Positions 26,119 to 45,100 are shown, counted from the first letter of the stretch. The stretch is DNA of 64,000 nt from Omnitrophica bacterium GWA2_41_15 (GCA_919902675.1 CAKKRH010000010.1:38614-102613); one strand, 5' to 3'. The notes: generated by a model not told the origin, from the letters alone. Made by a program: numbers and translations.

Positions 26119-26355
26119 TTAAAGTAGCGGCTTATCGAGTTGCTTACCAGGATTTCTTCTCTCCCTGCCCTGCTGTTGATAAACGATCTTCTCGTTTATC
26201 CAGCGCTCGATGTGCTTGCGGTGGAATCTCCAGTCCGCGCCAATCTTAAAAGCGGGAATCTTTCCTTCCCGGGCCAGCTTATTCACCGTAAAAGGGTGCA
26301 GTTTGAGGAAATCACTGACTTCCTTGGTATTCATTATGTCTTTACCCTTGTTCAT
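26119..26355 (-). CDS. Excisionase-family HTH DNA-binding protein, copy 2
   Basis: The protein core is identical to copy 1 (KDIMNTKEVSDFLK...QQQGRERR). DNA is about 90 percent identical over roughly 200 bp (26158-26356 versus 25021-25222). Confidence 0.7.
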   Translation of the reverse strand: MNKGKDIMNTKEVSDFLKLHPFTVNKLAREGKIPAFKIGADWRFHRKHIERWINEKIVYQQQGRERRNPGKQLDKPLL

Positions 26356-26444
26356 CCTTACCTCATTAGATAAAACCAAACACAATTATAAGTATACTAA
26401 ACAAGCAAATACTTGTCAAGAAAAATAAAGCACACCAAAGAAAA

Positions 26445-29864: not shown

Positions 29865-30041
29865 TATTAGTATTTTTAAAAGTGTTTAATAAGTTAGTAA
29901 CAAAATAAGCTTTGCTGCTTTCTAATGTTGCCTGCTTTGTTTGGATTTGTTTCCTCATTCTAAGAAAAAGTATAACATCAAAGCTTTATAAAAACAATGG
30001 CATTTCAGAGGTTTCAGGAAAACGCTTTCTTTAAACAACTT

Positions 30042-30659
30042 TTATTTTGCCGGATTATCGATGCCCGCGGCGCCATAAAATACTGAAATATGCCTATCAG
30101 GGCTAAATTTACTACCCCAAATAACCCTGCCATAAGTTCTAAAAAAATGTTCAACATGCGTTTTAAAGCTAAAAGACGCGCTTGAACGCGGGCTTTTTGC
30201 CAGCGCCTTACCCCACAACTTAGCCAACTTCAAGGCCGGCACGCGCTGTTTCCTGAAAACCCTTACCAAATCATCAACATCAGGGTCTAAATATCTGGCG
30301 ATTTTACCTATGGACCAATAGGCCGGCTCAAGAAGCATAACTATAACCCTTCCAAATCTTTTATAAGGTATCGCGTGGCGCTTATAATCTAAAAAAGTTA
30401 TTTGCGACCACCTATCTATATCTTCTGAGAAATTGACTGCGACACCGGAAACCGCTGATGTCCGTTCTATGGCATCCTGGGCGTCTGCGAAATATTTCTT
30501 ATCACAGCGGACGGCAAAATCTATATCCAAACTTGGCCGCGCTCCGCCTAAAAGATTCCCCGCGGCGCAACCGGTAAGAAAAATCTTCATACCGCCCTTA
30601 ACCTTATTAGAGTTTTGGCCCAGTTTAGAGAAAAAATCATCTATATTCTTTTTATTCAT
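30042..30659 (-). CDS. Putative minimal nucleotidyltransferase-fold protein (candidate toxin/Abi partner of the XRE protein)
   Basis: LTGCAAGNLLGGARPSLDIDFAV fits G[S/C]x13DxD. Overlaps the XRE gene by 8 nt. Confidence 0.35.
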   Translation of the reverse strand: MNKKNIDDFFSKLGQNSNKVKGGMKIFLTGCAAGNLLGGARPSLDIDFAVRCDKKYFADAQDAIERTSAVSGVAVNFSEDIDRWSQITFLDYKRHAIPYKRFGRVIVMLLEPAYWSIGKIARYLDPDVDDLVRVFRKQRVPALKLAKLWGKALAKSPRSSASFSFKTHVEHFFRTYGRVIWGSKFSPDRHISVFYGAAGIDNPAK

Positions 30660-31152
30660 TTATCTTTAGATTTAATAACTTATCCTGCCGAGACAACAAA
30701 TTATCGGCAACTTCTTTTCCAATTCTTGATTTTAACATAAGCCAACTATTTATACATGCCTTGCGCGTCTTAATGGTATTTTTATAAATCTTTTTTTGGG
30801 CATTGATTCTATTTTTAGTTATTTTTGAAAAAAGGCTGCCGATAGTCCTGTCCTTAGGGTTTAATTTATAAAAGGCCGCACCCAAGCTTACCTGTACGGT
30901 ATTTTCTAATACCTTGCGCGGCCAGCTGGCACTCTTATTAAGTTCAAGAGGCGCAATACCATCCACCAATACACCAGGCTTTATCCCCAAGGCAAAAGAA
31001 AGCGCCCTTAATGTGGCTACGGTAATATCCTGCCTGCCATGCTCTATAGCGCTAAGATTAGGCCTGGGAATACCGGCTCTCAGCGCCAATGATTCCTGGG
31101 ACAATCCTTTCGCCAAACGCCACAAACATATATTTTCCCCCAAACTAATCAT
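30652..31152 (-). CDS. XRE-family helix-turn-helix protein with C-terminal extension
   Basis: LAKGLSQESLALRAGIPRPNLSAIEHGRQDITVATLRALSFALGI is a Cro/C1-type HTH. An AATGTAG-N8-CTACATT palindrome lies upstream at 31161-31182. Confidence 0.7.
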   Translation of the reverse strand: MISLGENICLWRLAKGLSQESLALRAGIPRPNLSAIEHGRQDITVATLRALSFALGIKPGVLVDGIAPLELNKSASWPRKVLENTVQVSLGAAFYKLNPKDRTIGSLFSKITKNRINAQKKIYKNTIKTRKACINSWLMLKSRIGKEVADNLLSRQDKLLNLKINE

Positions 31153-31235
31153 GATTATAATGTAGCATATTTACTACATTATGTCAATATAGTTTCTATT
31201 TCGGTATGAAGCTTTGATTTATCAACAAAAAACCG

Positions 31236-31262
31236 AACAAGATGTTCGGTTGCGGATAAAGC
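31236..31262 (-). terminator. Rho-independent terminator (AACCGAACA-aga-TGTTCGGTT with a T-run on the minus strand) after vapC
   Basis: Read directly. Confidence 0.5.
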
Positions 31263-31288
31263 GGCCTTCCGGAAAAGACATATTATCG

Positions 31289-31657
31289 CTATCTTAAGAT
31301 AACCACATTATGAAGCCCAAGAAAATGTTTATCACTGGTAATTAATTTTGCCTTCTCCTGCTGGGCAGTAGCATAAATTATCGCGTCCGCCATAGCAAGA
31401 TTGTATCTAAGACTAACATCTGCCGCTGTCAAAGCCAAACTATCATCCAAGACCACAACCCTGGCCTTACCCATATGGGCGACGGCCAAAAGCGCGTCTT
31501 CCTCGCTTCTCTCCCTTTTAATCTTTTTATAGACCTCATAAATAATTAACGCTGGAACAACGATTTCCTCGATCTTTTCCAGATAGGAGAAATACTTTTG
31601 CGCGAGCGGTCCATCAGTAAAGAACTCCAGCCATCCCGATGAATCAACTAAATTCAT
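31289..31657 (-). CDS. vapC: PIN-domain toxin VapC
   Basis: MNLVDSSGWLEFF...LITSDKHF; PIN acidic residues present; 122 aa. Confidence 0.8.
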   Translation of the reverse strand: MNLVDSSGWLEFFTDGPLAQKYFSYLEKIEEIVVPALIIYEVYKKIKRERSEEDALLAVAHMGKARVVVLDDSLALTAADVSLRYNLAMADAIIYATAQQEKAKLITSDKHFLGLHNVVILR

Positions 31658-31863
31658 ATCCTCTGGCTATGGTCGCGCGGCGACTTAATGTTCATGCCTT
31701 TAATGTATCCGCGGAATTCCTTCAAAGGCTTTCCGGGAACCAATGTAATCAGCCCTTCCTTAACCAGCATCTCTATCTTCTGGCCGCTTTTTAAAGAAAG
31801 CGTCTTTCTTATTGCCTTAGGGATAACTACCTGATACTTCGGAGAAAGCGTTACTTCAAGCAT
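31654..31863 (-). CDS. vapB: AbrB/MazE-type antitoxin VapB
   Basis: 69 aa, SpoVT/AbrB-like swapped-hairpin N-terminus (KYQVVIPKAIRKTL). Overlaps vapC by 4 nt. Confidence 0.7.
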   Translation of the reverse strand: MLEVTLSPKYQVVIPKAIRKTLSLKSGQKIEMLVKEGLITLVPGKPLKEFRGYIKGMNIKSPRDHSQRI

Positions 31864-32044
31864 CGATACATACTCCTTCCAACGATTTGATTATCGTTAA
31901 ATAAAGTATACAACATTTTCACAAAAAAATCAACTTTTTTCCCGACAACAACTGACCCCTCTTTAATCTTTAACCCTCTGCAGGGTTAAAGATTAAAGAA
32001 CAGACTCATCAGTGGTATTTTCGAATAAGCGAATAAGCGAATAA

Positions 32045-32071
32045 GGGGTCAGCCCTTGAAATGTGAAATGA
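32045..32071 (+). repeat. 27-bp terminal-inverted-repeat-type sequence GGGGTCAGCCCTTGAAATGTGAAATGA. An exact inverted copy lies at 38697-38723
   Basis: Perfect 27/27 reverse-complement match read directly. Related to the MITE TIR GGGGTCAGGCCTTGAAACTTGAAAT. Confidence 0.85.
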
Positions 32072-32262
32072 GCTCCTCAACCTCGCGATTAACCTTCTTA
32101 TCCTCTTGTCTTAGACGCTCAATATCCCCGGCCGCTTTACTGACCGCGGAATAGGTTATCCCAAACCTGGTCCCGATTTCAACGTTACTTAAAGAGGTGA
32201 GTTTTTTAGCCAGGTAGATAGCGACCTTCCTGGCGAAAACCGGCTTTTTCTTGCTATTTTAC
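32050..32262 (-). pseudogene. Startless fragment encoding a DnaA-C-terminal-like HTH domain (KVAIYLAKKLTSLSNVEIGTRFG...), probable C-terminal remnant of an IS transposase
   Basis: My translation of the minus strand is open for 70 codons with no ATG and ends (ISHFKG*) inside the 27-bp TIR. Confidence 0.4.
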
Positions 32263-32263
32263 C

Positions 32264-32758
32264 TTACTTATATTTTTTCTCCTGGAAAGGATTATAATAT
32301 TTGCTCATTCCATCCATCAGCAAGGCCAACTCATAAAATTTTTCTTCCGGTATATCCTTAAACTCTTCAAGGCTCTGTATCTCCGTACTATATTTTTCTT
32401 TTATTTCCTTAAACCAAATTGAAAACTGTTCCTTCGCTCGTTCGCGCATATATGCATCCGGAGCGTCATCATAAAATGTCTGTATTACAAATCCTTGATA
32501 AGACTTCAGCAGTTTAACCTTATCTTTTGAGCTCCATTTAACAGTAACGCCAATAACCCAAGCACCCCCATGGTATACACCAAAATTAATATTTTTAATC
32601 GCCATGTTGCTCTCATGTCTTTTCCTGAACTGAGCATAAACAGCTCTGATTATCTCTAATCCATCATTATTATAAACATTCCACCCTGAAGATACTAAAG
32701 CCTTTTCTTCGTTTGATAAATTAAACCATTCTTGTGGTCTAGTATTTTTGCTTACCAT
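32264..32758 (-). CDS. Hypothetical protein, AT-rich orphan ORF embedded in IS/MITE debris
   Basis: 164-aa ORF with no recognisable motifs. Confidence 0.4.
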   Translation of the reverse strand: MVSKNTRPQEWFNLSNEEKALVSSGWNVYNNDGLEIIRAVYAQFRKRHESNMAIKNINFGVYHGGAWVIGVTVKWSSKDKVKLLKSYQGFVIQTFYDDAPDAYMRERAKEQFSIWFKEIKEKYSTEIQSLEEFKDIPEEKFYELALLMDGMSKYYNPFQEKKYK

Positions 32759-32800
32759 ATTGGGGCAAATTTTGGCTTATTACGATCTAATAATAATTAT

Positions 32801-32929
32801 GGGATCAGGCCTTGAAACTTGAAATTAGTCATCAACTTTGCAAACAGCCTCAAGAAACAAATAAAACATTTATTCTACACCAAATAACAAAGCTATTGGT
32901 TAAATTCAATATTCAAGGTCTGGCCCCTT
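32801..32929. mobile_element. MITE-like element copy A (about 129 bp) with TIRs GGGATCAGGCCTTGAA...TTCAAGGTCTGGCCCC
   Basis: Near-identical copy at 38522-38648; partial right-end copies at 33102-33132 and 33171-33199. Confidence 0.6.
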
Positions 32930-33095
32930 AATCCCTTTTGCAGTTTTAAGGTATTCAAGGAATTTTTGGTAGTCGGTTTTATCGAAGAAAATCTTTTTGC
33001 GGTCATCACCGCGGCTGGTTATGTGATAAAGGCAGCCTTCGCCTTGCAGTCTGTAAGGACGGGCCTTAGCTGTATTTTATACTGGACAACGAGAT
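32930..33095 (-). pseudogene. N-terminal fragment of a Y1/IS200-like (RAYT-type) transposase, truncated by the MITE at 32929
   Basis: My translation reads ARPYRLQGEGCLYHITSRGDDRKKIFFDKTDYQKFLEYL, matching the R.PR..GE..YH..RGN.R..IF.D..D...FL..L N-terminal pattern of IS200-like transposases. No ATG and no downstream HUH/Tyr part. Confidence 0.5.
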
Positions 33096-33287
33096 TATCA
33101 AGTTAAATTCAACATTCAAGGCCTGAGCCCTTAATATTTTTATTTGCTTTCGCACTTACAATTACAATCTTCTCATTCAAGGACTGACACCTTTATCCAT
33201 CAAACTATGGGTTAAGGAACGATGTTCTATATTTACTTTTACAAGGGGGGGGAACTTGACAGGGAGTACTCTTATGCCTTAAATAAG

Positions 33288-34889
33288 CTAAGGCAATAGC
33301 TCATTTTTAGCATGATTGATTGCCACTGCAAAATTGAGATTCTGTCCTTCATCAAAACTGGAAGATGTAATCCCAATCACTTCTCCATTCATATTAAAAA
33401 GTGCACCTCCACTGCTTCCAGGAGAAATCGGCGCGCTAATCTGAATAAGTTTGGTGCCGTTCATATCCCTCACCGCACTGACTAAGCCATCGGAAACTGT
33501 ATTTTCGAGCCCTTTAGGATTACCGATCGCTACAACCCGCTCCCCAACAGAAACTAGATCTGAATCTCCTAAAACCACCGGTATAAAATTACCGGCACCG
33601 TTAATTTTTAACAACGCCAAATCTCTAATCGTATTATCCTTAACAATTTGAACATTGGAATAGACGCGATTATCGGCAATAAATTTTATTGATATTGCTC
33701 CTCCTCCACTAATTACATGAGAATTAGTAATAATCAATCCGTCTGAGCTAACAACAAAACCGCTGCCAATCGTCCCTTGGGCCTGTACAAGAACAACTGA
33801 CTTACCGAAAGCGCCAACAATCTCTTCCGCTGAAGATATTGGTAAGCTCTTTTTTGCGAGCTTCCCTGAAGATTCAAGCGGGGATACGCTCTGCTTTTTT
33901 GAAGCATCACTTCCGAAAATCTCATTCCAGCGGTTTATTTCGTTCTCTTCTTGAAACTTGATCCGTTTTGCTGAGACAAGATCCCCTTCCTTAACGGCCT
34001 CCTTCATATCAAATGGCCGAGCTAAAGATAGATTCTTTTCCAATACCTCAGTAATCTTAATTTTAGCAATCTCCGTTTGCTTATATCCAAGGATACGACT
34101 CGTAGCTTGATCTTTAATCGGTTCATGTAAACGAACTACAGCGAAAACATCATTTTTTTCAATCTTATCGTTAAGACCCGCATTTATATATATACCTTTG
34201 TCATCTATGCGGACAACGCGACAAATCCAATAATCACCTTTAACATCATCCGATAGAATACTAACCGCATCTGCTAAGGCCTCTTGCAAATAATTTTTCT
34301 GCCCTGTTCCGGTTGCGATAATATCTCCTGTATTAACATCTACCAAGCGCAATGTCGCTGTATATTGACTATCTCCGAATCGTTCACCACTCTTATTAGG
34401 AAGAATATCTCCAAACAAAACATATTGTACCCCATAAATATTTCCTAATTGATTAGCGGGATCTTTTTTTACCCAATCGGATTTCTCGAATTGTATCTCA
34501 CGGATTAATTGATTCACTTCTTGTCGCTCTACGACATCAAACATACTGGTCTTTTTAAGAAGGTCAGATAACAATCCTACAACAAGGTTAACTTTTGGTT
34601 CGCTGGGTTTTTCCAAGTTTGGCGTGGCAATATTGATGTTATACGCATGCGAGCCGCTCGTTTCTGTCTTGTCGGTTTTGTTAAACGGACTACCGGAGAT
34701 ATTGATTGACTCACCAAAGCTACCAATAGCTACCTTATATTTTGTATTTTTCTCTTTAATCTGACTTAGTTTCTTATGAAGGTACTCAAATTCTTTCTTC
34801 ACTCCTTCTTCTGCCCGAACAATCCCTTGAGCGATAAAACCGAATACTAAAAATAAAATAAATAAATAGAAAACAAGATTTTTCTTCAC
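33288..34889 (-). CDS. Secreted fusion protein: CsgG-like (TolB-N-like fold) N-terminal domain plus C-terminal trypsin-like serine protease (S1)
   Basis: Signal peptide; CsgG-like pattern VAIGSF...DVVERQEVNQLIREIQ...GVQYVLFGDI...RLVDVNTGDII; protease triad context GSGFVVSSDGLIITNSHV (His), DLALLKI (Asp), GSSGGALFN (Ser). Confidence 0.6.
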   Translation of the reverse strand: MKKNLVFYLFILFLVFGFIAQGIVRAEEGVKKEFEYLHKKLSQIKEKNTKYKVAIGSFGESINISGSPFNKTDKTETSGSHAYNINIATPNLEKPSEPKVNLVVGLLSDLLKKTSMFDVVERQEVNQLIREIQFEKSDWVKKDPANQLGNIYGVQYVLFGDILPNKSGERFGDSQYTATLRLVDVNTGDIIATGTGQKNYLQEALADAVSILSDDVKGDYWICRVVRIDDKGIYINAGLNDKIEKNDVFAVVRLHEPIKDQATSRILGYKQTEIAKIKITEVLEKNLSLARPFDMKEAVKEGDLVSAKRIKFQEENEINRWNEIFGSDASKKQSVSPLESSGKLAKKSLPISSAEEIVGAFGKSVVLVQAQGTIGSGFVVSSDGLIITNSHVISGGGAISIKFIADNRVYSNVQIVKDNTIRDLALLKINGAGNFIPVVLGDSDLVSVGERVVAIGNPKGLENTVSDGLVSAVRDMNGTKLIQISAPISPGSSGGALFNMNGEVIGITSSSFDEGQNLNFAVAINHAKNELLP

Positions 34890-34916
34890 TGTTTACTCCT
34901 TTATTGTATTTCTTTA

Positions 34917-35345
34917 TTATTGCGCCTTACGAATGCGGATCGTATAATCCTTAGCTTTAGGATTAAAGGCAGTCGTTTTGTACGCATACGTAGAATATCG
35001 TGGTATCAAAACAAGTTCCCAATTAGTATCGTCTCCTATTTGAAAATCCTGTTCATCGCGGAAAACAGTTTGAACTTGCAATCTTAATAACTCATCTTTC
35101 ATATTTCGGATCTCGCAGTAGACTTTAAGCCGTTTATCCTCAGTCCAGTCCGTCTTTTGAGCTAAAATAACAACACGCTTTGAAGAAAACTGATTGTCCA
35201 GGTCCTTATCGAGGATAACTACTTTAAGATTTCTTTCCTTATCCTCATGAGCATTATATGGAATAGCATGATACGGTCCGGTAGCACAACCGTTTAAAAG
35301 AAAAATCCCGGTTACAAGATAAAAGATACGCGAAGGCTTCAACAT
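34917..35345 (-). CDS. Small lipoprotein (lipobox LLNGC), possibly DUF4810-like
   Basis: Lipobox after the signal peptide, 142 aa; assignment is from operon context only. Confidence 0.45.
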   Translation of the reverse strand: MLKPSRIFYLVTGIFLLNGCATGPYHAIPYNAHEDKERNLKVVILDKDLDNQFSSKRVVILAQKTDWTEDKRLKVYCEIRNMKDELLRLQVQTVFRDEQDFQIGDDTNWELVLIPRYSTYAYKTTAFNPKAKDYTIRIRKAQ

Positions 35346-35368
35346 ATTCAGCTCCTTATCGTTTAAGT

Positions 35369-35959
35369 TTATTGATAGGCAACCCCTGCTTCGCCTACTC
35401 GTTTAATTTCATAGGAATCTTCCCAAACAATATCGCTATTTTCTGCATCAATCAACTGAAAAGCCATCAAGACATAATCTGACCGGTTTCCGCTAGCTGC
35501 CTTTGATAACCCAGTCAATTCTCCGGTCAAGTATAAATCGACACCCAACAGATCATCTTCTTTGCTGGCTGTTACCAGATTCTTTCTTTTAGCTTCGCGT
35601 TCCTTAAGAACATCCTCTATCCGGTCACGGGCAAGAAAACGCACCTTACCAGTAGCATTCTTATTAAGTTCGATTCGAATCTTTTGAGTAAAAATATCTT
35701 TATTAATTATAAATCGCGTATTGTTCTTAACCGGCAAAATAGCGATTCGGGGAGTTCCTTTAGCGTTCATAACCTCAGGGATCTCTAAAATGGATAGAGC
35801 CATCTTCCGCGCAACCGTCATGATATCGGTAGATTCAATACCTGTTCCCCCTAGATTATCATCATCATCAGGAAGGATCACGGTTGAGTGCGAAATCGGA
35901 ACACTAGCACAAGACGATAATGTAAGTGTAAGTAGAAAAAACAATGTCCAATATCTCAT
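35369..35959 (-). CDS. Lipoprotein with TolB-N/LpoB/DUF799 (GNA1162)-like pattern
   Basis: Lipobox LSSC; RIAILPVKNNT...RIEDVLKERE...GVDLYLTGELTG...FQLIDAENSDIVWE resembles the CsgG/LpoB/DUF799 fold pattern. Confidence 0.5.
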   Translation of the reverse strand: MRYWTLFFLLTLTLSSCASVPISHSTVILPDDDDNLGGTGIESTDIMTVARKMALSILEIPEVMNAKGTPRIAILPVKNNTRFIINKDIFTQKIRIELNKNATGKVRFLARDRIEDVLKEREAKRKNLVTASKEDDLLGVDLYLTGELTGLSKAASGNRSDYVLMAFQLIDAENSDIVWEDSYEIKRVGEAGVAYQ

Positions 35960-35970
35960 ATTTTTCTCCT

Positions 35971-36543
35971 TTAGTATACTATATCTTTTATAATAGTTCG
36001 ATTTTGCAAAACAGGATAACCATTTTTGAAACGCACCTGATCTTCATCAATTCTGTCTTCTATTTTAATCTCGTGAGTCTGGCGACCTTCAAATACAAAG
36101 AAACCAATCTCCATTCTCCCCGCATAGCTGATTCGCCCCGGAGCGACATCGAATAGTCTATTGACACCCAAGAGAGACTGCATTCCGTTCAAAGATACCA
36201 GCTTATAAGTCCCTCTATGTAATTTTAAAGAAAACAAAAACAAATCATCCTGTTTAATATAATTTTCATTCGGAGAAGGAACGAAAAACCATTTTTTATT
36301 ACCGTATGCCTTGTATTGATTAACCTCTTGCAATGTTAAGCTTGCAACCCGAAAAACATCTTTTTGATCTGGTTTATCTTTATTGTTAAATTTACAAGAA
36401 AAAAGCACTATCCCCTCTTTTGGCTGCAGCTCTAGCGTAGTTTTACGCTTCATGAGCAAATAAGGACTAGCGCAACCTAATGTGGACAAGGATAAAATTA
36501 GTATAAGTGCCCAAAGTTGAAATTGTTTTCTCCTCGATTTCAT
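35971..36543 (-). CDS. Lipoprotein, hypothetical
   Basis: Lipobox TLGC, 190 aa. Start overlaps the upstream TPR gene stop by 4 nt (operon). Confidence 0.5.
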   Translation of the reverse strand: MKSRRKQFQLWALILILSLSTLGCASPYLLMKRKTTLELQPKEGIVLFSCKFNNKDKPDQKDVFRVASLTLQEVNQYKAYGNKKWFFVPSPNENYIKQDDLFLFSLKLHRGTYKLVSLNGMQSLLGVNRLFDVAPGRISYAGRMEIGFFVFEGRQTHEIKIEDRIDEDQVRFKNGYPVLQNRTIIKDIVY

Positions 36544-38201
36544 TCTGTAATCCTTTGTATAATAACGTTATCGCCTTCGTGAATATTTACATCAAATTCT
36601 TTGCTTAACCCTGCAATTAGATTATTGCTGGCATCTGAGACCTGAAGTTGAATATGGTGCTGACCGATAGAAAGCCTAGTAGGAATTACACGCACTTCAG
36701 CGGGCAACAGGCTCCAGTGCCGCACATCGGCTGCGGGATTAGCTATTGAGCTCCCAATAGCAAAGGCTAAGCTTATAAGAGCTATACCTACAGCAGCATA
36801 CGATGCTCCTGCTGCAGCAGCACCACCAGTTCCATAGAGACCAGCTTGTTGCTGTAATCTATTGGCTTGATCAGACATTTGCCGAGATACCTGCGATAAT
36901 TGATACGAAATTTGTGCTGTCGTCTCTTTAAACTCAGCCTTACCCTTAAGAATGCCATCCATCATTCGCCCGCCACGAGTTGATGCTTGGTAAATAGTGT
37001 CATTATAGAGCATCGTCTTATGCTCATCAAAACTATCTTTTTTATCTACCACGATCACAACATTATTTGCCTTAAACGGCTTAGATGTAAAGACGGCTAT
37101 TTGGCCATATTCACCAATCGGGTACTTGATTGGACCGCGTCCTAGTTCAACAATAAACAAAACATTATTGGTGGTATCGACGACTTGCTTAAGAATTTCT
37201 GTTGAAATTTGCTTGCAATTTTCGGTGCGGATTCCAGTCAATGTTGTAATAGCTGTTTCAAACGCTTGGATTTCTGCTTCGAGCGATAGGACTTCCTTTG
37301 GTTTCTTAGGAGAACTGGTTGTACTATCATCTTTTCCTTTTGAAGAAAAATTCTGAACTGGACCCTTTGAAGCCACCTGTCCTTTTTTCTTATCTTTCTC
37401 CTCTTTCTTTGGCTTCGAGGGAGCCTGTTTAGACATCAATTTCTCTAACTCTTTTTGTTTTTGACCCAAAAGATTAAGCTTGCTTTGCTCGTCTGAAACA
37501 ACATATCTATTAATAGGATAAGCCAAAAAGTATGCCTCTTGTGCTTTTTTAAAATATTCATCGCTCATTGACTGATTATTATGCAGTATTTCCAATCTAG
37601 CTGCCAATAAATATAGTAATGTTGCATCGCTCTTATAAAGTCCACCCTCTACATCTGAATCGCATAATATTCCGTTTTTCACAGCAGCAAGGGCATTGTC
37701 ATAATCATGTTCTTGTTCTAATAACAAGGCTACATAGAGTGAATTATAAACTCTTTCATAAGGATCACCTTTATACGCCTTCTCTCTTTCTTCCCCTGTT
37801 AATGAAACGGCGCGAGATTCCAGATGGCTAAAAGCAGACGTATCATTCATAAGGTAGTAAGCACCGAGAAATGCACTTAAAGCTTGCTTATAATCTCCTG
37901 CTGTAAGATAAATTGATCCTAGCTGATTATTCCAAAGAGCAAAATCCTTGTCTTTCGTTTTCGCGAAAGCAGCAAACAAAGAACCGGCTTTAGCAAAATC
38001 ACCTGAGTAGAAGGCAAACTCACCATCAATTGCCTGTTCACTTGGAATAGGCTTACTTTCGGCAGGTTTTGATTTGACAGATTCTGATTGAGATCCGCTA
38101 AAATTGGATGTCTGAGCTAAAGATGGGGTTAATTGGGCAGAAAGGAATGCCAAGATGAGAAGAAAACAAGCTAACTTCTTTAAAGCGCTTTTTTCCAACA
38201 T
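36540..38201 (-). CDS. Secreted TPR-repeat protein with lysine-rich low-complexity linker and C-terminal domain of unknown function
   Basis: Signal peptide; TPR-like helices over residues 60-230; a KKEEKDKKKG linker; C-terminal domain ending with a hydrophobic segment. Confidence 0.6.
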   Translation of the reverse strand: MLEKSALKKLACFLLILAFLSAQLTPSLAQTSNFSGSQSESVKSKPAESKPIPSEQAIDGEFAFYSGDFAKAGSLFAAFAKTKDKDFALWNNQLGSIYLTAGDYKQALSAFLGAYYLMNDTSAFSHLESRAVSLTGEEREKAYKGDPYERVYNSLYVALLLEQEHDYDNALAAVKNGILCDSDVEGGLYKSDATLLYLLAARLEILHNNQSMSDEYFKKAQEAYFLAYPINRYVVSDEQSKLNLLGQKQKELEKLMSKQAPSKPKKEEKDKKKGQVASKGPVQNFSSKGKDDSTTSSPKKPKEVLSLEAEIQAFETAITTLTGIRTENCKQISTEILKQVVDTTNNVLFIVELGRGPIKYPIGEYGQIAVFTSKPFKANNVVIVVDKKDSFDEHKTMLYNDTIYQASTRGGRMMDGILKGKAEFKETTAQISYQLSQVSRQMSDQANRLQQQAGLYGTGGAAAAGASYAAVGIALISLAFAIGSSIANPAADVRHWSLLPAEVRVIPTRLSIGQHHIQLQVSDASNNLIAGLSKEFDVNIHEGDNVIIQRITE

Positions 38202-38299
38202 CTTCTCCTCTCTACGAATGAGTAAACCACAAGAAGCAATTCATATTATATAAAAAATGCGGTATTTGTCAAAGCTTAACTTGCGTCATGTTAAATAAG

Positions 38300-38505
38300 A
38301 ATTAAAAGTCCCCAGTTCAATGAGGAAGTGCAACGATTTTATAGTTCGTGTGAGAAAATTGGCTTTATCGAAACCTCTTTTGCAACTCGTAGTCGGAATG
38401 CTTAAATCGACGGTGGAGAATTCAAAAATGGGATGTCTAAATAAGCCGCTCTCTCCGATTAAAAACTTATTTCTGACAACTAGGCGTTGCACTTCCTGGT
38501 TGAAT
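38300..38505. repeat. About 200-bp element bounded by 20-bp inverted repeats (TTCAATGAGGAAGTGCAACG ... CGTTGCACTTCCTGGTTGAATG); probably non-coding
   Basis: Read directly. The track ORFs 38286..38492 and 38320..38652 lie within it and look spurious. Confidence 0.4.
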
Positions 38506-38521
38506 GTAGTTCTTCAATTAT

Positions 38522-38648
38522 GGGGTCAGGCCTTGAAACTTGAAATTAGTCATCAACTTTGCAAACAGCCTCAAGAAACAAGTAAAACATTTACTCCGCA
38601 CCAAATAACAAAGCTATCAGTTAAATTCAACATTCAAGGCCTGACCCC
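38522..38648. mobile_element. MITE-like element copy B (TIRs GGGGTCAGGCCTTGAA...TTCAAGGCCTGACCCC)
   Basis: About 90 percent identical to copy A at 32801-32929. Confidence 0.6.
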
Positions 38649-38696
38649 CTAATCCGCATGTTTTAATTCTATCGGAAAGACTAAGAGATATCAAAT

Positions 38697-38723
38697 CATT
38701 TCACATTTCAAGGGCTGACCCCT
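38697..38723 (-). repeat. Inverted exact copy of the 27-bp TIR at 32045-32071
   Basis: TCATTTCACATTTCAAGGGCTGACCCC is the reverse complement of 32045-32071. Confidence 0.85.
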
Positions 38724-38762
38724 ATTTCTCTCCTCTGGAATTAGACTGGCCCTTATTTTCCC

Positions 38763-39191
38763 TCATTTCTTCCACTTATTGTATACTTTTTTATTATTGA
38801 TAATAATTGCATACAAACTATTCCAACTTATCCGCCAACTTGAATTTATTGATCCGGGCTTAGAATTCTTAAAAATAAACTCAGTTGCATTTTTCGTTGA
38901 CAACACCTCTTTACAATGTGGACACCTGGGTTTTGTCAACCGAGTGAATTTTCCTCCACATTCGCATTTCTCTAGAAACTGCTCTATGTCTCTATTGATT
39001 TTTTCGTACCTATCTTTAATCTTAAAAAAACAAAGACATGCTTGGGGAATTTGTTTATAATGTTCTTCCAAAAAGAGTGTTTTTCCACAACTATCACAGT
39101 AAGCATATGTGGTCTCATTAAAGCCATTATGGATTAATTCATATGAAAATTTGAAGCCACATTTATTACAATAGCCGATTTCTTTTTTCAT
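38763..39191 (-). CDS. Double zinc-ribbon small protein; candidate immunity protein for the RHS C-terminal toxin
   Basis: CNKCG...CDSCG and CECGG...CPHC; 142 aa; very AT-rich; immediately 3' of the RHS gene. Confidence 0.45.
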   Translation of the reverse strand: MKKEIGYCNKCGFKFSYELIHNGFNETTYAYCDSCGKTLFLEEHYKQIPQACLCFFKIKDRYEKINRDIEQFLEKCECGGKFTRLTKPRCPHCKEVLSTKNATEFIFKNSKPGSINSSWRISWNSLYAIIINNKKVYNKWKK

Positions 39192-39199
39192 GTTCTTGA

Positions 39200-42100
39200 T
39201 TATTCGATTTCATAGCCTCGGTTTAAACGCCTTTGCCAGATTTTCCCAGGAAGTGTATTCTCTCCACCATGTTTTACTCCAGGCACATATAGATCAGATT
39301 GCTTAACATTCAAGTCAAAATGATATTTCCCTTTTCCAGCACCTATGCCTAATTTTGATTCTATGGTAGTGGCTCGTGTTCCTTTTGGAAATGCATCTGC
39401 TTTCGTAACAAAGGCGTGCCTATTAAGTTTTCCAGCTTGTTCCATAGCTTCTTTCCCCGCTTTATTAGTATAATGCCGTACCCTGGTTAAGTCATCACCT
39501 TTATTTATCACTTTACTCGCTATCCCAGCCCCACCTGGTACTCCCGGAGCAAGTAAAGCAAGAGAATCTGCAATTAACCCTAGTCCATTCATAAAGCTGG
39601 GGGTATCATTGAATTGCTTTATGGATTGACAAAATGAAGTAATATCCCAAAAGGTTTCCCAAAACCCTCTTGGGGTTGGAGCTTCACTAAGGCTAGAGGC
39701 TTCGCCGTAGGTGAAGCCGCTGGAGATACCTGTGACCAAACCAGAGCCGAAGACTCCACCCCAGAAACCTTCCGCTCCATTCTGCTGATATGCGGTTATC
39801 CCAGAGGCGATCACCACTCCAGCATCAAATATCTGCCGGCCAACATTTTTAAAAATTCCGGCTACCCCCTCCCCTAGTATCCCTGTCCCTAAACCAAACG
39901 CTGCTCCCCATAGCGCACCATCACCAGCATTTTGGCCGCTTAATCCCGCGGTAGTGGCTCCTCCCGCGGCTCCGGCTATGGCTCCAGTCAACATCGGCCA
40001 GATAAACGGCGAAGCGATAACCGCTACCAAAGCCGCGACTACCCCGCCGGCAAAACTGTTCCAGAACTTTTTCCAGCTCCATTTATGACCACTCGGATCG
40101 GTGTAATTTATAGGATTGTTGTTACAATAGGAATAACGGTTTAGGTCCTGAGGGTTGTAGGGGTTGGGGACTATGGTATCAGGGGTTATGAAACGGCCTA
40201 TGTCGGGGTCGTAGTATCTGGCGCCGTAGAAGTATAGGGCGGTTGTGGGGTCTTCTTCTTTGCCGGTGTATTTGTAGTTGGTGGTTTTGGTGCCGTCGGA
40301 GAGATATGTCTTGCCGTAGGGGTAATACTCTATACGCTGTTCTTTCTTGCCGTCGGCATCGCTAATCACATTGCTTGAGCCTAGGTGGTCGGAGTGGTAG
40401 TAGTGCGGCTCCTGCAGTCCATTTACCGTAAGGACACGCTGGGAGCCGAGATAGATGTGCTTCTTGGCGCTGTCTTGAGAGTCTACCTCATAGAGGCTGC
40501 CCACATAGGTTGTGGTCAGGCCGGAACTAGAGACATACTTCTTCACCCTGCCTCCGTCTCCGTCATAGGTGAAGTTAGTGGTGGCGCTTGTGGCATCTTG
40601 GTCGTAAGAGAGCTTCCAGGAGGCGTCTTTCAGACAGTGGATAAAATAGGCCTGGCCCACGATCATATTCGCCTCTGTGCCCATTGCTATGTATTTCTTG
40701 CTATCGGTATAATATTCCTGGAGGCTGTCGTAATCGCTGTCACGCTCCAGGTTATTCAAGGCGCTTTTGACTGTGATGCTATTTTTAGAAGGACAGCCAA
40801 TCAGGTTCCAGCCTTTCTTCAGGGATTTGGTCATCTGATCCGAGGAGGTCTTACCGGAGACAGTCAGGCTGACGCTGCTTAGGCTTGAGATATACACCTG
40901 GTAGCCTCTGCCATATTCTAAGCTGGTGAATTGGTTAAAGTCTGAGTTTTTGACATAGTGCTCGAACTTCTCATCCTTAGGGTTATAGCGGGAGATTTGG
41001 TTGTATTTTGAGAAGATGCTTGAGAATACACTGCTTATCTCTAAGCTCTCCGGGATTAGCGGCAGGGCAAAGAAGTTCCAGCCCGGATTTAAGGTCAGAC
41101 TTACCGAGGCGGAAACAGACTCATCGGAACCCTCAGGCGAGGTCTTGGTCAGCCGGTTCTCATAGTCATAGGTATAGTTAATGGTCTTTGATTCTGAGGT
41201 AGTCTTCTCTTTAAGGTTGCCGTTTGAGTCGTATTCAAAGCTTGAGCCGTCGGAGAGGCCGCTTAAGGCGTGGGGCTTGTCCGAATTATAGCTGTAAGTA
41301 GTTGAGCCGTTTGAGAGCATATTGCCAATTGAATCATAGCTGTAATCTATTGAACCATAACTGCCGGAGGCAGAAGTCAGACGGTTCAGGTTATCATAAC
41401 TAAAACTCTGGTTAGAGCCGTATTGGGAATCAGTAATACCCTTGACATTACCGTTACTATAGAACTCATAGGAGAGATTCTGCAAGGTACCCTGGCTGCC
41501 TTCAGTTTTTAGGGTAGAGAGCCTCAAGGTCTTTTCATCGTAGGTGTAGTTAGTCTCTACATCGTTGCCGTATTTGATATAGGTTATCTGACCGCTGGCG
41601 TTGTAGTTTACCTCTTTGACATAGTCTTTATCCATATAGCCGTTTCGCACCTTAGTCGGGCCCTGGGCGGAATATGTGTATTCCAGGTAATTGCTATCCG
41701 GGTATTTGAGCTTAGTTAAGCGATCCAAGGTGTCGTATTCCTTTTCCACGCTGTAGCTGGTTGAGTCTATAGTCTTGGTAGACTTGGTCTCCCGGCCTAA
41801 GCTATCATACCAGAATTCGGTAGAGCCGCTCTGGTCGCTGATCTTGGATAATCTGCCCTTATAGTTCTCTTTAGAACTGTCATCATAAGTATAGCTGACC
41901 AGGGTCTTGGATTCGGGCGAGGTTACCTTCTTTTTGGTTAAACGGTTTAACTCGTCATACTCAAATTCTAAAACCTGCTCTTTGGCATCGGTCTGCTTAG
42001 TAAGGTTACCCAGGTCGTCGTATTCATAACTCCAGACCCCCATATCCGGATCGTCCATCTTGACCTTGCGGCCTAAGGAGTCATAGTAGATAGAACTGGT

Positions 42101-45100
42101 ATTGCCTTTGGCGTCTTTGACCTTGGTTAGGTTGCCCTGGATGTCGTAGGTATAGGTAGTGGTGTAAACTTGGGAGTCGTTGTGCTCTTCCACCTTGGTC
42201 AGGCGACCGTAGGCGTCGTTATAATAAGTATGGTAATTGCCGTTCTCATCAGTCTTGGTAGTGGTCCAGTCAGAGTAGCTGGTTGAGCTATAGCTGCCAT
42301 CCGGGTTAGTGTTCTGGGTCAGACGGCCTACCGGGTCATAGTCAAAGCTGAAATAATAACCGGAATAACTAGGCGAGCTAAAGGAGCTATCGTTACTTAC
42401 CAGATAGGGCAGATACTGCTTATTAACCTGGCCTTTTGAGTCATAGGTTACTATCCCGGAAACCACCTGGTAGCTCTCATCCTGGGCCGGGGATTTAGTT
42501 TCTATCATGCGGCCCAAACCGTCAGAGAACTGGTAGGTGGCCAGGTAATTACCGGAGTAATCGCTTTTGACCTTTTTGGTAACTTTTATGGGCTGACTGG
42601 ATAAGTTATATTCATAGCTTATCCCGGGCAGGCTTTCGCTGTCTTTGGGGCCAATGGCTGAGGTCAACCGGCCCAAGCTGTCGTAGCGGTATTCAGTTGC
42701 CTGGCTGTTGGAGTCGGTAGACTTGGTAACCTGGCCGGTCTGGTAATCGTATTCGTTGTTTAAGGTATGGCCTTTGGAATTGGTGATCTTGGTAGGATAA
42801 CTGTGCAGGGTGGAATCGTATTCGGTTGTAGTAGCGTAGCCTTTAGAGTTGGTGGCCTTGGTGAGATTACCATAAGAGTCATAACTGTATTGGCTGGAGA
42901 GCTTCTTCTCGCTTGCGTCCTGGGAGTTATACAGCCAGGCCTCCTCTTTAGTCAATAAGCCATGGCTGGCTGAGGCATCATAAGAGTCAGCTCCATCATA
43001 ATAAAACCACCTCTGGGTTACTCTTTCTCCGCTTGCGTCCGCAAGTTTGACAGACTTAGGCAGACCGACTATCCAGTCTGAGGTATTATAGCTATACTCC
43101 GTGGTTAGGGTTCTTTCATCGCCGCTTTCGGAGACATTGCCTTGGCTCTGAACCTTGGCGGGGTTGCCGTAGTCATCGTATTCGTAGGTTAGGCGGGTCT
43201 GCTTATAGCTGGAGTCACCGTCATAGATATAGCTGTCGGCCTGGCTCACATAGGCGAAGTTGACCCCGGAATAAAGCTCCTTTTTGCTCCAGGTGTTTTC
43301 AGCTTTGGCATAGAGATTGCCGCCGGAGTCTCTGGTCTCCTGCTTGTAAGGCTTGCCCTTGTAGACCGAGTCCTGCTTAAAATAGCTCTCGCTGTAATTG
43401 CCGTCGCTATCGGTTACTTTGCAATAGCCAAAGCCCCTAAACTCCCGCTCGCTAAAATCAAATACTCCGTCCTTATAGCTGTAGTTAGTGCTGTAGCTAT
43501 TGCCCCGGCCGTCGCTTAGCTGGCTCTGGCTGACCGCGTATATCGGGAAGCTCAAGTCTGACTGAGTATCAGATCCGCTGTTAGAATACTGGCTAGAGGA
43601 TTTATAGGTTATCTCGATGCTGCCGCCTATGCCGCTATCTATCTGTTTTAATAATTCGGGGTATGGGCTGGGATTAATATAGCTAGAGGTCTCGCTATCA
43701 GTGGGATGATGGATAAAATCCAGCTGGCCGTCGGAATTCACATCCAGGACCCTGGTGCCATCGGTAAAATCTCCGGTAGTCATCTTCCAGCTAGAGTCCT
43801 CTTTCCAGCCTAAGCCGGTGTTGATGTAGGTCTTTCGCAAAGAACTGCCTTTATTGATCAGGATATCGGCTAAGCCGTCGTTATTCACATCGGCAAACTG
43901 AGTGGAGTTATCGTTGATGTTGGCATCTGAGGGCGGATCAAGGCTCGACTCCCTGGCCCAGCCGCCTCCGGTATTAAGATAGGTCTTTCTCCCAAGACTA
44001 GAGGTATCGCTGGCTATCACCAAATCCAATAGGCCGTCGGCGTTTAGGTCAACCAATTGCGTGCCGTCCCGTAAGTCACCGTCAGGAAGGGCCCAGGAGC
44101 TGTTTTCGCTCCAGCCGCTAGACTTATTATTCAGATAGGTTATCCGGCTGTCGGAGCGGCAGTAAACATAATCCGCGTAACCGTCACTATTGAGATCAGC
44201 TAAAATCACCCCTTGAGATTCATGCCAGTCATGATACTCATCATACCTGGCTACGGCTATGTATTTACCGCTGGGAAAACTCCAGCCGGAGCTACTCTCC
44301 CAGCCGCTTTGCTTATTGTTTAAATTTATACTATTAATCACACCCCCTTCTTTGGTTTGGAAATTCTGCACCAAGTCCACCCAGCCGTCTCCGTTTATAT
44401 CCGCGAAACGCACCCCCTGGTCCCCGGTGTATGACCAGATATGCGGGCTAATCTGCCAGTTGGTGGTTTCCTTCCAGGCGGAGACGGAAGAATCAAACAA
44501 AAAGCTGTGGTTTTCGGTATAATTATCTCCGTAATACCGCTTTCTGATTATATCCGGATAGGTATCGTTATTCACATCCACAATCACGCATCCGGAATCA
44601 AAGTTGGCGTAAGGGGGGATGCTGTAACTGGTGCCGGAGGCCTGCCAGCCCTGAGACTGCTGTTGATATTCAAAGCTGATTTCCGGAAGGCTTATATTAT
44701 TATCCTGGCCGTAAGTCTTGACCGAGCTAAGCAAACTGCGGCTGTTCTGGGAGGTGGCATAGCTTAAAACATACCGGCGCACCTGCTCATCCTGGTATTT
44801 TACTTTAATCTCGCTTAGCCTCTTGGCCATAGTTGCCTTAAATCCCGGCCGGTAATTAATAATGCTGTCAGAGCGGCTCTCGTAGCTAAATTGGACGCTG
44901 TAAGCCGGCTCAAGTGAATTACCGCTGTTACCGGTATAACTTATCCGGCTGGGATAGAGCTGGTTGTCTTCTTTTGTATAACTTATAGTCAAATAGTTAT
45001 TATAAAGGTCTTCCACCCTGTTCAAAGACCATCTAAATACCTTGGAGCCGTAGTCCTGGCGGCTGGAGCTGGTCTGGCCAAAGTAGTATTTAATCCCGGA

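What the first reader, a model, noticed from the sequence alone, without database searches (positions are those of the whole stretch)
32045..38723. Perfect 27-bp inverted repeats 6.7 kb apart bracket the lipoprotein cluster and IS/MITE debris
Seen: GGGGTCAGCCCTTGAAATGTGAAATGA at 32045-32071 and its exact reverse complement at 38697-38723. The sequence is closely related to the terminal inverted repeats of the 130-bp MITE-like elements at 32801-32929 and 38522-38648. Inference: the segment in between (decayed transposase, orphan ORF, MITEs, the five-gene secreted cluster) could be a composite transposon-like cargo island or the product of recombination between IS ends. The perfect 27/27 identity suggests recent activity.
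Basis: partly seen in the sequence, partly recalled or inferred. Interest (0 to 1): 0.55.

Follow-up and report, generated by a model that had tools for sequence, protein, structure and literature searches.

The report
TIRYT transposon ends flank native operon
The two identical 27-base inverted repeats are real, but they are the standard left and right ends of a known small mobile element (a "TIRtron", which encodes a tyrosine transposase), here broken up and scattered around an ordinary cell-envelope operon, so the finding is fairly ordinary.

Summary
None is expected by chance.

The 27-mer is the terminal inverted repeat (TIR) of a 1.0-kb IS-like element. That element encodes a Y1/HUH tyrosine transposase fused to a DnaA-C-like HTH domain. 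This is the known TIRYT/"TIRtron" family (Di Nocera 2013), also called TnpA_REP subclass 2.1 and reported as RAYT group 1. Its TIR motif is GGGGWSAS.

Intact copies from metagenomes carry exactly this 27-mer at both ends. Mapped onto one of them, the window's right copy is the 5' end (TIR, 36-nt leader, ATG). The left copy is the 3' end (last 68 codons, with the stop codon inside the TIR). The two 130-bp MITEs are internal-deletion derivatives of a sister subtype.

The five-gene lipoprotein operon is native. Relative contigs from six metagenome sources (77-93% nt identity) carry it without any TIR. It has its own consensus promoter, and the homology stops at the operon's edges.

There are no target-site duplications and no empty site. 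The exact 27-mer recurs across species, so 27/27 identity does not indicate recent activity. Movement of the whole segment as a unit is not shown. The best reading is a mosaic of TIRtron debris.

The parts
32045..32071 (-). The transposase stop codon TGA lies inside it at 32049-32051.
   Evidence: It equals positions 989-1015 of the intact 1015-bp element L139 4227-5241.
32052..32255 (-). C-terminal fragment (68 codons, no start codon) of the TIRYT transposase: the DnaA-C-like helix-turn-helix domain.
   Evidence: Pfam Bac_DnaA_C, E=7.5e-9. It is 90-96% identical to fragments P0002-P0007. Window 32253-32045 matches element positions 807-1015 at 89.5%.
32264..32758 (-). Orphan 164-aa ORF lying between the transposase C-terminal fragment and MITE 1. 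It occupies the place of the missing middle of the transposase gene.
   Evidence: No convincing Pfam, NCBIfam or PADLOC family. No homologue in any fetched locus.
32796..32933 (-). MITE 1: an internal-deletion derivative of a type-B TIRtron. The 5' TIR, leader, ATG and a few codons are fused to the last ~10 codons and the 3' TIR.
   Evidence: (D3, I3/I4), alignment. Folds as a long hairpin, z=-3.35.
32936..33064 (-). N-terminal fragment (~43-47 codons) of a type-B TIRYT transposase. Its start codon is mutated (AAG) and it is cut off by MITE 1.
   Evidence: Translation. It is 72-79% identical to the N-termini of PF01797 (Y1_Tnp) proteins that sources name RayT.
33065..33135 (-). Type-B leader with a promoter-like site (33101->33074), plus the solo type-B 5' TIR (33104-33135).
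   Evidence: (I3, I5).
33165..33191 (-). Degenerate solo TIR (GGTGTCAGTCCTTGAATGAGAAG).
33288..38201 (-). Native five-gene envelope operon: a 553-aa TPR-like protein, a 190-aa lipoprotein, an LpoB-like protein, a DUF1425/YcfL-like protein, and a CsgG/LpoB-like N-terminal domain fused to a trypsin/HtrA-like protease. The block conserved in relatives is 33266-38288.
   Evidence: Relatives L125 and L127-L133 are 77-93% nt identical over exactly this block and carry no TIR.
38245..38272 (-). The operon's own sigma-70 promoter, TTGACA-16-TATAAT (12/12 match), inside the conserved block.
38517..38653 (-). MITE 2 (type B), 92% identical to MITE 1. It sits directly after the ATG of the type-A stub.
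   Evidence: (D3, I2). Hairpin fold z=-6.2.
38657..38695 (-). Type-A 36-nt leader, with a promoter-like TTGATA-17-TAGAAT at 38694->38666, plus the transposase start codon (38657-38659). The gene body is missing.
   Evidence: Alignment to intact 5' ends. Window 38722-38664 matches element positions 1-59. Promoter scan.
38696..38722 (-).
31941..31959 (-). Internally deleted type-B-like TIR remnant just outside the interval, back-to-back with the left 27-mer. It is orthologous to an intact TIR in the related contig L001 (12036+).
   Evidence: Alignment.

Best explanation
The two 27-mers are the 5' and 3' terminal inverted repeats of one subtype ("type A") of a TIRtron.

What a TIRtron is: a ~1.0-kb IS-like element. 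Its single gene encodes a TIRYT, which is a RAYT-like Y1/HUH tyrosine transposase with a C-terminal DnaA-C-like helix-turn-helix domain. In intact copies the 5' TIR is followed by a 36-nt leader carrying the gene's promoter. The 3' TIR overlaps the stop codon. The two TIRs are identical over 27 bp.

What the window holds: wreckage only.
- A 66-bp type-A 5' stub at 38657-38722.
- A 209-bp type-A 3' piece at 32045-32253.
- A type-B 5' end with about 45 codons.
- Two type-B MITEs and several degenerate solo TIRs.

All of these pile up on both sides of a native five-gene envelope-lipoprotein/protease operon that has its own promoter.

Most likely history (inferred): TIRtrons and their MITEs repeatedly inserted next to or into one another in a variable region. 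That region lies between an RHS toxin/immunity cassette and a vapBC module. Deletions and recombination among the copies then produced the present mosaic.

The 27/27 identity reflects strong family-wide conservation of the TIR, not a recent event and not a partnership between these two copies. That conservation is presumably because the TIR is the transposase's recognition site. Its tandem heptamers (TGAAATG TGAAATG) are good candidates for HTH binding, but this is inferred.

No intact transposase is present in the window. Any mobility would need one supplied in trans.
For: Identity of the gene fragments:
- The C-terminal fragment matches Bac_DnaA_C.
- The N-terminal fragment matches PF01797 proteins named RayT, and P0001 carries both parts.
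- Full-length relatives of 315-316 aa have Y1_Tnp plus Bac_DnaA_C. Their REP_Tyr_transpos score is 69.7 bits, below the cutoff of 80.

Intact elements bounded by the motif:
- L021 4213-5224 and L056 682-1693.
- L139 4227-5241 is 1015 bp with exactly this 27-mer at both ends and an open 316-aa ORF. L158 has the same 27-mer at both ends and its tblastn match to that protein is unbroken. L153 likewise gives an unbroken full-length protein match.
- Window 38722-38664 maps to element positions 1-59. Window 32253-32045 maps to positions 807-1015.

MITEs: they are 5'-end/3'-end fusions.

Literature match:
- TIRYT/TIRtron, with TIR consensus GGGGWSAS, the 3' TIR overlapping the gene, and TIRs occurring as singles, dimers and groups (PMC3733652).
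- Subclass 2.1.2 with Bac_DnaA_C (PMC6006769).
- Equated with RAYT group 1 by a preprint, and that group is described as IS-like.

The operon is native:
- L125 and L127-L133 carry it without TIRs, and the homology is limited to 33266-38288.
- It has its own 12/12 promoter.

The 27-mer is widespread:
- Exact copies in other species' genomes and in 38 metagenome stretches.
- 24 of 43 of those copies are in contexts that are neither gene end.

Other points:
- The related contig L001 has a type-A 3' TIR back-to-back with the orthologous B-type TIR next to vapBC, but no operon.
- No TSDs anywhere in the family.
Against: - The two 27-mers are of complementary type (5' and 3') and in the correct mutual orientation to define a single element. 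That is only about a 1-in-8 chance for two independent solo ends (my estimate).
- In the window both flanks of the operon differ from every relative examined. The novelty begins exactly where the TIR debris begins. Relocation of the block mediated by these elements therefore cannot be excluded.
- Only 64 kb of a ~2.15-Mb genome is visible. Genome-wide copy number and the presence of an intact TIRYT gene are unknown.
- The papers read here report no transposition assay or biochemistry for TIRYT. All mechanistic steps are inferred from IS200/IS605 and RAYT.
Confidence: 0.8

Rival explanations
1. Cargo transposon. The 6.7-kb segment is (or recently was) a single mobilisable unit. A type-A TIRtron has lost its interior and now carries the operon between two intact TIRs. 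It could be excised and pasted as a unit by a type-A TIRYT supplied in trans.
For: - Both TIRs are intact, of 5' and 3' type, and correctly oriented on the same strand.
- The operon's flanks differ from all relatives, starting at the debris.
- Intact type-A TIRYT genes with the same TIRs exist in groundwater metagenomes of the same sample series (L139, L158).
- L001 shows another TIR-bounded 2.8-kb unit: a transposase gene plus four small ORFs between a 5' TIR and a second 3' TIR.
Against: - No second location of the unit and no empty site were found.
- The cargo is a lineage-wide native operon with its own promoter.
- Among 53 neighbouring motif pairs from other genomes, 28 are dimers with a gap of 150 nt or less and 2 are intact 1-kb elements. 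The only kb-scale outward-facing pair is L001.
- The interior also holds type-B debris and an unrelated ORF, which implies many separate events.
- L001 already has a type-A 3' TIR at the vapBC junction without the operon.
Confidence: 0.1
2. One split element. Both 27-mers come from a single ancestral type-A TIRtron at this site. Its interior (element positions ~66-806) was replaced by recombination with other TIRtron/MITE copies that flanked the operon elsewhere in the genome.
For: - The two pieces are complementary and non-overlapping: positions 1-66 and 807-1015 of the 1015-bp element.
- Type-B ends also bracket the operon inside the type-A ends, at 38649 and 32801.
- L001 has a type-A element at the equivalent vapBC-proximal place.
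Against: - The type-A gene sequence is not continuous across the type-B-bounded block. 547 bp of unrelated DNA (the 164-aa ORF) intervenes, so extra events are needed anyway.
- The stubs are too short to tell whether they share a parent: 83-90% versus 89-94% identity to the reference copies.
- The spacer between the A and B TIRs differs completely from L001.
Confidence: 0.2
3. Domesticated REP/REPIN-like system. The TIR copies are host-serving structural or regulatory repeats (such as terminators or mRNA stabilisers) maintained by a single-copy RAYT, rather than selfish IS debris.
For: - The protein is RAYT-like.
- Most motif copies across genomes are gene-less singles or short inverted dimers.
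- The TIR core is conserved far more strongly than the protein across phyla.
Against: - A single TIR is not self-complementary: fold z is only -1.7 and -0.9.
- There is no GTAG tag.
- Several decayed gene copies occur per contig (L003 and the window), and insertions disrupt other copies and a host gene (L010), which is IS-like behaviour.
- RAYT group 1, to which a preprint assigns this subclass, is described as the most IS-like of the main RAYT groups.
Confidence: 0.08
4. Chance similarity or an assembly artefact.
For: None.
Against: - 0 of 100 shuffles gave any match.
- The arrangement is identical in two further assemblies from different samples.
Confidence: 0.01

Closest known systems
TIRtron / TIRYT (Di Nocera, De Gregorio & Rocco 2013, BMC Genomics 14:522). 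Also TnpA_REP subclass 2.1.2 (Quentin et al. 2018, BMC Genomics 19:475), which a preprint equates with RAYT group 1 (Bertels et al. 2017).
   Same: - A RAYT-like Y1/HUH transposase with a C-terminal Bac_DnaA_C-like HTH.
- Flanked by terminal inverted repeats that begin with GGGGWSAS (here GGGGTCAG).
- The 3' TIR overlaps the gene end and the 5' TIR sits at a fixed short distance upstream.
- TIRs also occur as gene-less singles, dimers and groups.
- Wide and patchy taxonomic spread.
   Different: - The window has no intact gene, only fragments of two subtypes.
- The TIR similarity seen here runs over ~23 nt (GGGTCAGSCCTTGAAWNKTGAAW) across many phyla, not just the published 8-nt motif.
- The 130-bp MITEs keep the leader, the ATG and the gene tail.
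- The host is Candidatus Omnitrophota, which is not named in the passages of those surveys that I read.
REPIN-RAYT systems (Bertels & Rainey 2011; Nunvar et al. 2010; Ton-Hoang et al. 2012)
   Same: - A related Y1 transposase.
- Short non-autonomous inverted doublets that fold into a long hairpin.
- No target-site duplications.
   Different: - REPs are individually palindromic and tagged with GTAG, and the RAYT gene is usually single-copy and vertically inherited.
- Here a single TIR does not fold, there is no GTAG, and several decayed gene copies and nested insertions are seen.
IS200/IS605 family (IS608, ISDra2)
   Same: - A Y1 HUH transposase of the same Pfam family (PF01797).
- No target-site duplication.
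- A compact element.
   Different: - IS200/IS605 elements have no terminal inverted repeats. They use different subterminal hairpins at the left and right ends.
- They have no DnaA-like HTH domain.
Composite transposons made of two DDE-type IS copies (Tn5/Tn10 type)
   Same: Inverted, identical outer ends bracket several kilobases of genes.
   Different: - There are no two IS copies here, only one 5' stub and one 3' fragment.
- No TSD, no transposase, and the cargo is a native operon.
- There is no evidence that the unit ever moved.

Membership tests
TIRtron / TIRYT | Encodes a RAYT-like Y1/HUH tyrosine transposase (PF01797). | tested here: met
   The window's N-terminal fragment is 72-79% identical to PF01797 proteins. 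Intact relatives with the same TIRs hit Y1_Tnp at 2e-11 to 8e-14 and show HYH and YIHLNP in L139. The window's own copies are truncated before the HUH motif, so they are non-functional members.
TIRtron / TIRYT | C-terminal HTH domain (Bac_DnaA_C, HTH_23 or HTH_28) typical of subclass 2.1. | tested here: met
   Window 32052-32255 matches Bac_DnaA_C at E=7.5e-9, 35.9 bits, above the cutoff of 31.5.
TIRtron / TIRYT | Gene flanked by terminal inverted repeats carrying GGGGWSAS rather than by REP palindromes. | tested here: met
   GGGGTCAG fits GGGGWSAS. Intact elements L139, L158, L021 and L056 are bounded by the motif. A single TIR does not fold.
TIRtron / TIRYT | Fixed geometry: the 5' TIR lies a short distance upstream and the 3' TIR overlaps the gene end. 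| tested here: met
   The leader is 36 nt in both L139 and the window stub. The stop codon at 32049-32051 lies inside the TIR.
TIRtron / TIRYT | TIRs form a repeated family of singles, dimers and groups. | tested here: met
   There are 8-9 TIR copies within 6.8 kb of the window. 28 of 53 neighbouring pairs in other genomes are short inverted dimers.
Composite transposon | Two IS copies, or at least two functional outer ends plus a cognate transposase. | tested here: inconclusive
   Both outer TIRs are intact, but only a 66-bp stub and a 209-bp fragment remain and there is no transposase in the 64-kb window. The rest of the genome was not visible.
Composite transposon | Target-site duplication flanking the whole unit. 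| tested here: not met
   The flanks are ...GCGAATAA | and | TATTTCTC..., with no direct repeat. TSDs are also absent from intact elements and dimers of this family, so the test has little power here.
Composite transposon | The unit is found at another site, or an empty site exists in relatives. | tested here: not met
   - All contigs with the identical protein share the same neighbours.
- Relatives of the right flank end their homology at 38766 and have no TIR.
- L001 shares the left flank but has different content.
- The joined-flank pattern is absent from metagenome contigs.
Composite transposon | The cargo is foreign to the lineage. | tested here: not met
   The operon is present in many Omnitrophota (127 homologues). 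In relative contigs from six metagenome sources at 77-93% nt identity it has no TIR.
REPIN-RAYT | The repeat unit is itself an imperfect palindrome with a GTAG (or similar) tag. | tested here: not met
   Single TIRs fold at -3.9 and -2.6 kcal/mol, with z of -1.7 and -0.9. Outside the GGGG only weak A/T preferences are seen.
REPIN-RAYT | The protein reaches the NCBIfam REP-associated tyrosine transposase equivalog. | tested here: not met
   NF047646 scores 69.5-69.7 bits against a cutoff of 80 for the intact relatives.

The most novel reading that the evidence does not exclude
The intact, correctly oriented 5' and 3' TIRs make the 6.7-kb block a cargo-carrying derivative of a Y1 (TIRYT) element that can be mobilised in trans. 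A tyrosine-transposase TIRtron would then have captured and relocated a five-gene envelope operon. In the literature read here, this family is not reported to carry passenger genes.
Probability: 0.08. Interest if true: 0.55.

Novelty: new member of a known kind. Interest (0 to 1): 0.25.

Why it matters
The significance is modest.

- It assigns an unannotated repeat family in Candidatus Omnitrophota to the little-studied TIRYT/TIRtron class.
- It gives a clean reference anatomy for that class: 1015 bp, 27-bp perfect TIRs, a 36-nt leader with a promoter, the stop codon inside the 3' TIR, and 130-bp MITE derivatives.
- It shows that a perfect long inverted repeat need not mean a recent or paired event when the repeat is a strongly conserved transposase-recognition site.

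The very strong cross-phylum conservation of the ~23-nt TIR core, with its tandem heptamers, gives a concrete DNA substrate. With it one could test how the DnaA-like HTH and the Y1 domain recognise element ends. Among the papers read here, none reports such an experiment.

Tried and rejected
- **Rfam scan of 31000-40000 at E<=1.** It returned only a meaningless miRNA hit. No known RNA family is involved.
- **REP-like hairpin hypothesis for the single 27-mer.** Rejected: folding is no better than in shuffles.
- **Other core matches in the window (9870, 11316, 62617).** Each matches only the 12-nt core. The two I read (9870, 11316) show no TIR-like sequence beyond that core and appear to lie within coding sequence, so I treated them as chance. 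62617 was not read.
- **TSD search.** No direct repeats around the 27-mers or around 36 motif pairs from other genomes. Instead the inverted repeat often extends 2-5 nt beyond GGGG.
- **Empty-site search.** The joined-flank pattern found nothing in metagenome contigs. Relatives of the right-flank gene and of the left flank do not share the opposite flank.
- **Function of the orphan ORFs.** The 164-aa ORF, the L001 cargo ORFs and the L003 ORFs gave no Pfam or PADLOC family.
- **A type-B composite (38649..32801) inserted into a type-A gene.** Rejected as a sufficient explanation, because the type-A gene is not continuous across it.
- **DnaA-box resemblance of the TIR.** The literature states there is none, and I did not pursue it.

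Full report
**1. The observation**

The 27-mer GGGGTCAGCCCTTGAAATGTGAAATGA occurs at 32045-32071 on the + strand. Within three mismatches these are the only copies in the window, and none of 100 shuffles produced a match. The inverted repeat continues imperfectly to 36 nt (I1).

A looser core (TCAGNCCTTGAA, one mismatch allowed) finds 11 sites against 1.45 expected. Eight of them fall between 32049 and 38718. They include:
- the four ends of two 130-140-bp elements that are 92% identical to each other (D3);
- a solo end at 33104-33135;
- a degenerate copy near 33190.

The arrangement is identical in a 110.8-kb contig (L122) and in a 2.15-Mb contig from another sample (L126). It is not an assembly artefact.

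**2. What the repeats belong to**

Translating the minus strand between 32040 and 33140 shows two gene fragments.

- The one ending at the left 27-mer reads ...KKKPVFARKVAIYLAKKLTSLSNVEIGTRFGITYSAVSKAAGDIERLRQEDKKVNREVEELISHFKG*. It matches Pfam Bac_DnaA_C (E=7.5e-9). Its stop codon (32049-32051) lies inside the 27-mer.
- The other (33064->32936) reads ARPYRLQGEGCLYHITSRGDDRKKIFFDKTDYQKFLEYLKTAK.

A search with both pieces joined hit PF08299 proteins with the C-terminal piece. It hit PF01797 (Y1_Tnp) proteins with the N-terminal piece. Sources name those proteins "REP element-mobilizing transposase RayT", and they come from Candidatus Omnitrophota. P0001 carries both parts.

By my arithmetic, about one match is expected by chance. 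In 30 of the 122 sequences searched with tblastn (121 fetched loci plus the window), a Y1+HTH gene or gene fragment is present.

Intact elements bounded by the motif:
- L021 4213-5224 and L056 682-1693. Each encodes 315 aa with Y1_Tnp plus Bac_DnaA_C and scores below cutoff for the RAYT equivalog.
- L139 4227-5241 and L158 1108-2119, found by searching metagenome contigs for the exact 27-mer. These are ~1.0-kb elements with exactly this 27-mer at both ends.

L139 is 1015 bp. It has a 36-nt leader, an open 316-aa reading frame with HYH and YIHLNP motifs, and its stop codon inside the 3' TIR.

**3. Mapping the window onto the intact element**

Window 38722-38664 matches element positions 1-59, and window 32253-32045 matches positions 807-1015. 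The right 27-mer is therefore a 5' end: TIR, leader and ATG at 38657-38659, after which the gene is replaced by MITE 2. The left 27-mer is a 3' end with the last 68 codons. Both lie on the minus strand.

A sister subtype ("type B") has 3' end GGGGTCAGGCCTTGAAACTTGAAATTA and 5' end GGGGTCAGGCCTTGAATGTTGAATTTAAC. It accounts for:
- the solo 5' end plus N-terminal fragment at 32936-33135;
- the two MITEs, which are fusions of a 5' end (TIR, leader, ATG, a few codons) to a 3' end (about ten codons plus TIR).

The leaders carry promoter-like sites directly inside the TIR. Single TIRs do not fold better than shuffles. The MITEs fold into long hairpins.

**4. Comparison with the literature**

This is the family described as TIRtrons encoding TIRYTs. 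In that description, RAYT-like genes are flanked by TIRs sharing GGGGWSAS, often with the 3' TIR overlapping the gene, and the TIRs also occur as singles, dimers and groups (PMC3733652).

Quentin et al. place these in TnpA_REP subclass 2.1, with Bac_DnaA_C in subgroup 2.1.2. They found no REPs near those genes (PMC6006769). A preprint equates the subclass with RAYT group 1. Bertels et al. describe group 1 as the most widespread RAYT group and among the most IS-like (PMC5581495). GGGGTCAG fits GGGGWSAS.

**5. Is the 6.7-kb interval a unit?**

*The operon.*
- The 553-aa protein has 127 homologues, mostly from Omnitrophota.
- Relative contigs from six metagenome sources were fetched (L125, L127, L128, L129-L132, L133).
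- They align to the window at 77-93% nt identity only over 33266/33296 to 38273/38288.
- They carry no TIR-like sequence even at three mismatches.
- They have differing flanks: miaA-hflX, RadC/HNH, an ion channel, and an HSDR_N-like gene.
- The conserved block includes a perfect TTGACA-16-TATAAT promoter at 38272->38245.

*The left flank.* Contig L001 is 89% identical over the vapBC side (window 30037-31948). It has a type-A 3' TIR back-to-back with the orthologous type-B TIR. Beyond that it has four small ORFs and a decayed full TIRtron, not the operon.

*The right flank.* Relatives of the DUF8255 gene (96% nt) lose homology at 38766 and show no TIR downstream.

*Target-site duplications.* None flank the interval, nor any intact element or dimer in other genomes. 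This is as expected for Y1/HUH enzymes.

*Empty site.* A joined-flank pattern found nothing in metagenome contigs.

*Spacing in other genomes.* Among 53 neighbouring motif pairs, 28 are inverted dimers with gaps of 150 nt or less and two are intact elements. The only kb-scale outward-facing pair is in L001.

**6. The "recent activity" inference**

- The exact 27-mer occurs in at least three other species-representative Omnitrophota genomes (L013/L036/L068, L018, L050).
- It occurs in 38 metagenome stretches. In 24 of those 43 copies it is followed by neither the leader nor the gene end.
- In the related contigs, 6 of 12 type-A ends are perfect and the rest differ by one base. The adjacent gene sequence is only 90-94% identical.

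Identity over 27 bp is therefore the norm for this family and says nothing about age or partnership.

**7. Most likely mechanism**

*Shown:*
- the element anatomy;
- the identity of the fragments;
- the derivation of the MITEs;
- the native status of the operon;
- the lack of TSDs.

*Inferred from IS200/IS605 and RAYT biochemistry:*
- the Y1 domain cuts and rejoins single strands at the element boundaries without duplicating the target;
- the DnaA-like HTH binds the TIR.

The TIR's tandem heptamers (TGAAATG TGAAATG, or TTGAAAC TTGAAAT in type B) are candidate HTH sites. In the type-C element of L010, both heptamers change together.

*Inferred history:* repeated nested insertions, followed by deletions and recombination among copies in a variable region. 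That region lies between an RHS toxin/immunity cassette and vapBC, and these events produced the mosaic.

*What cannot be excluded:* the two type-A pieces are complementary and correctly oriented. A single split element, or a block that can be mobilised in trans, therefore remains possible, but nothing shows that it has moved.

**8. Verdict**

The cargo-island and recency readings are not supported. This is a new member of a known kind, and interest is low to moderate.

Noticed in passing
Genome loci L005-L121 (e.g. L033 Legionella 6645-7346; L035 Rheinheimera 1065-1114; L073 Nitrospirae 3058-4029; L069 Aminicenantia 3558-4552): The ~23-nt TIR core GGGTCAGSCCTTGAAWNKTGAAW is present in many phyla: Omnitrophota, Legionella, Rheinheimera, Verrucomicrobiota, Kiritimatiellia, Nitrospirota, Geobacter, Planctomycetota and others. 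The adjacent TIRYT proteins are only 31-59% identical to the Omnitrophota ones. This conservation is far longer than the published 8-nt GGGGWSAS motif.
   Followed up: partly
L010 1295-2308 versus window 18670-19839: A related Omnitrophota genome (92% nt identical to window 13572-17783) has an intact third TIR subtype (GGGGTCAGACCTCAAAACTCCAAAAT). It abuts the last ~50 bp of an HD-domain gene that is intact in the window, so this is a presence/absence polymorphism with gene truncation. Both tandem heptamers of the TIR change together in this subtype.
   Followed up: partly
window 31960-31999 and 32022-32045: A perfect 18-bp-stem palindrome (DNA fold -16.7 kcal/mol, z=-9.4) and a tandem CGAATAAG x3 directly abut the left 27-mer. 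This 84-bp spacer is absent from the orthologous place in L001.
   Followed up: partly
window 38316-38335 / 38485-38504: A 20-nt inverted-repeat pair (90% complementary) encloses 149 nt between the operon promoter and MITE 2. It may be another small MITE. No copy was found in the fetched loci.
   Followed up: partly
window 38763-39191 and 39200-45736 (minus strand); L136-L138: A 2178-aa RHS/YD-repeat protein is followed by a 142-aa DUF8255 zinc-ribbon protein. Relatives at 96% nt share only the last ~270-385 bp of the RHS gene plus the DUF8255 gene, in other contexts. This looks like a swappable toxin-tip/immunity cassette.
   Followed up: partly
L125 9046-10647, L129 9642-11354, L133 9326-11092: In three more distant relatives the operon has a sixth gene, a TPR paralogue of the 553-aa first gene. 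It is missing in the window and in the closest relative, L128.
   Followed up: partly
L001 10305-10844; L003 3543-4055; L010 782-1046: Homologues of a pair of small ORFs (88 and 89 aa in L001, no family hit) recur next to TIRtron debris on three different contigs: both in L003, only the 89-aa one in L010.
   Followed up: partly
window 25014-25225 / 26150-26361 and 46121-47310: There are other internal duplications. One is a 212-nt repeat at 91% identity, which aligns to L001 14028-14858, where two HTH_17 genes are called. The other is 300-nt and 84-nt repeats with ~600-nt spacing inside what L122 calls an fn3-like 537-aa gene.
   Followed up: no
window 8660-8694 and 10025-10059: Runs of the heptamer GTGATTT/TGTGATT (about 4-5 copies). 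The run at 10025-10059 lies next to what look like pseudopilin-type genes.
   Followed up: no
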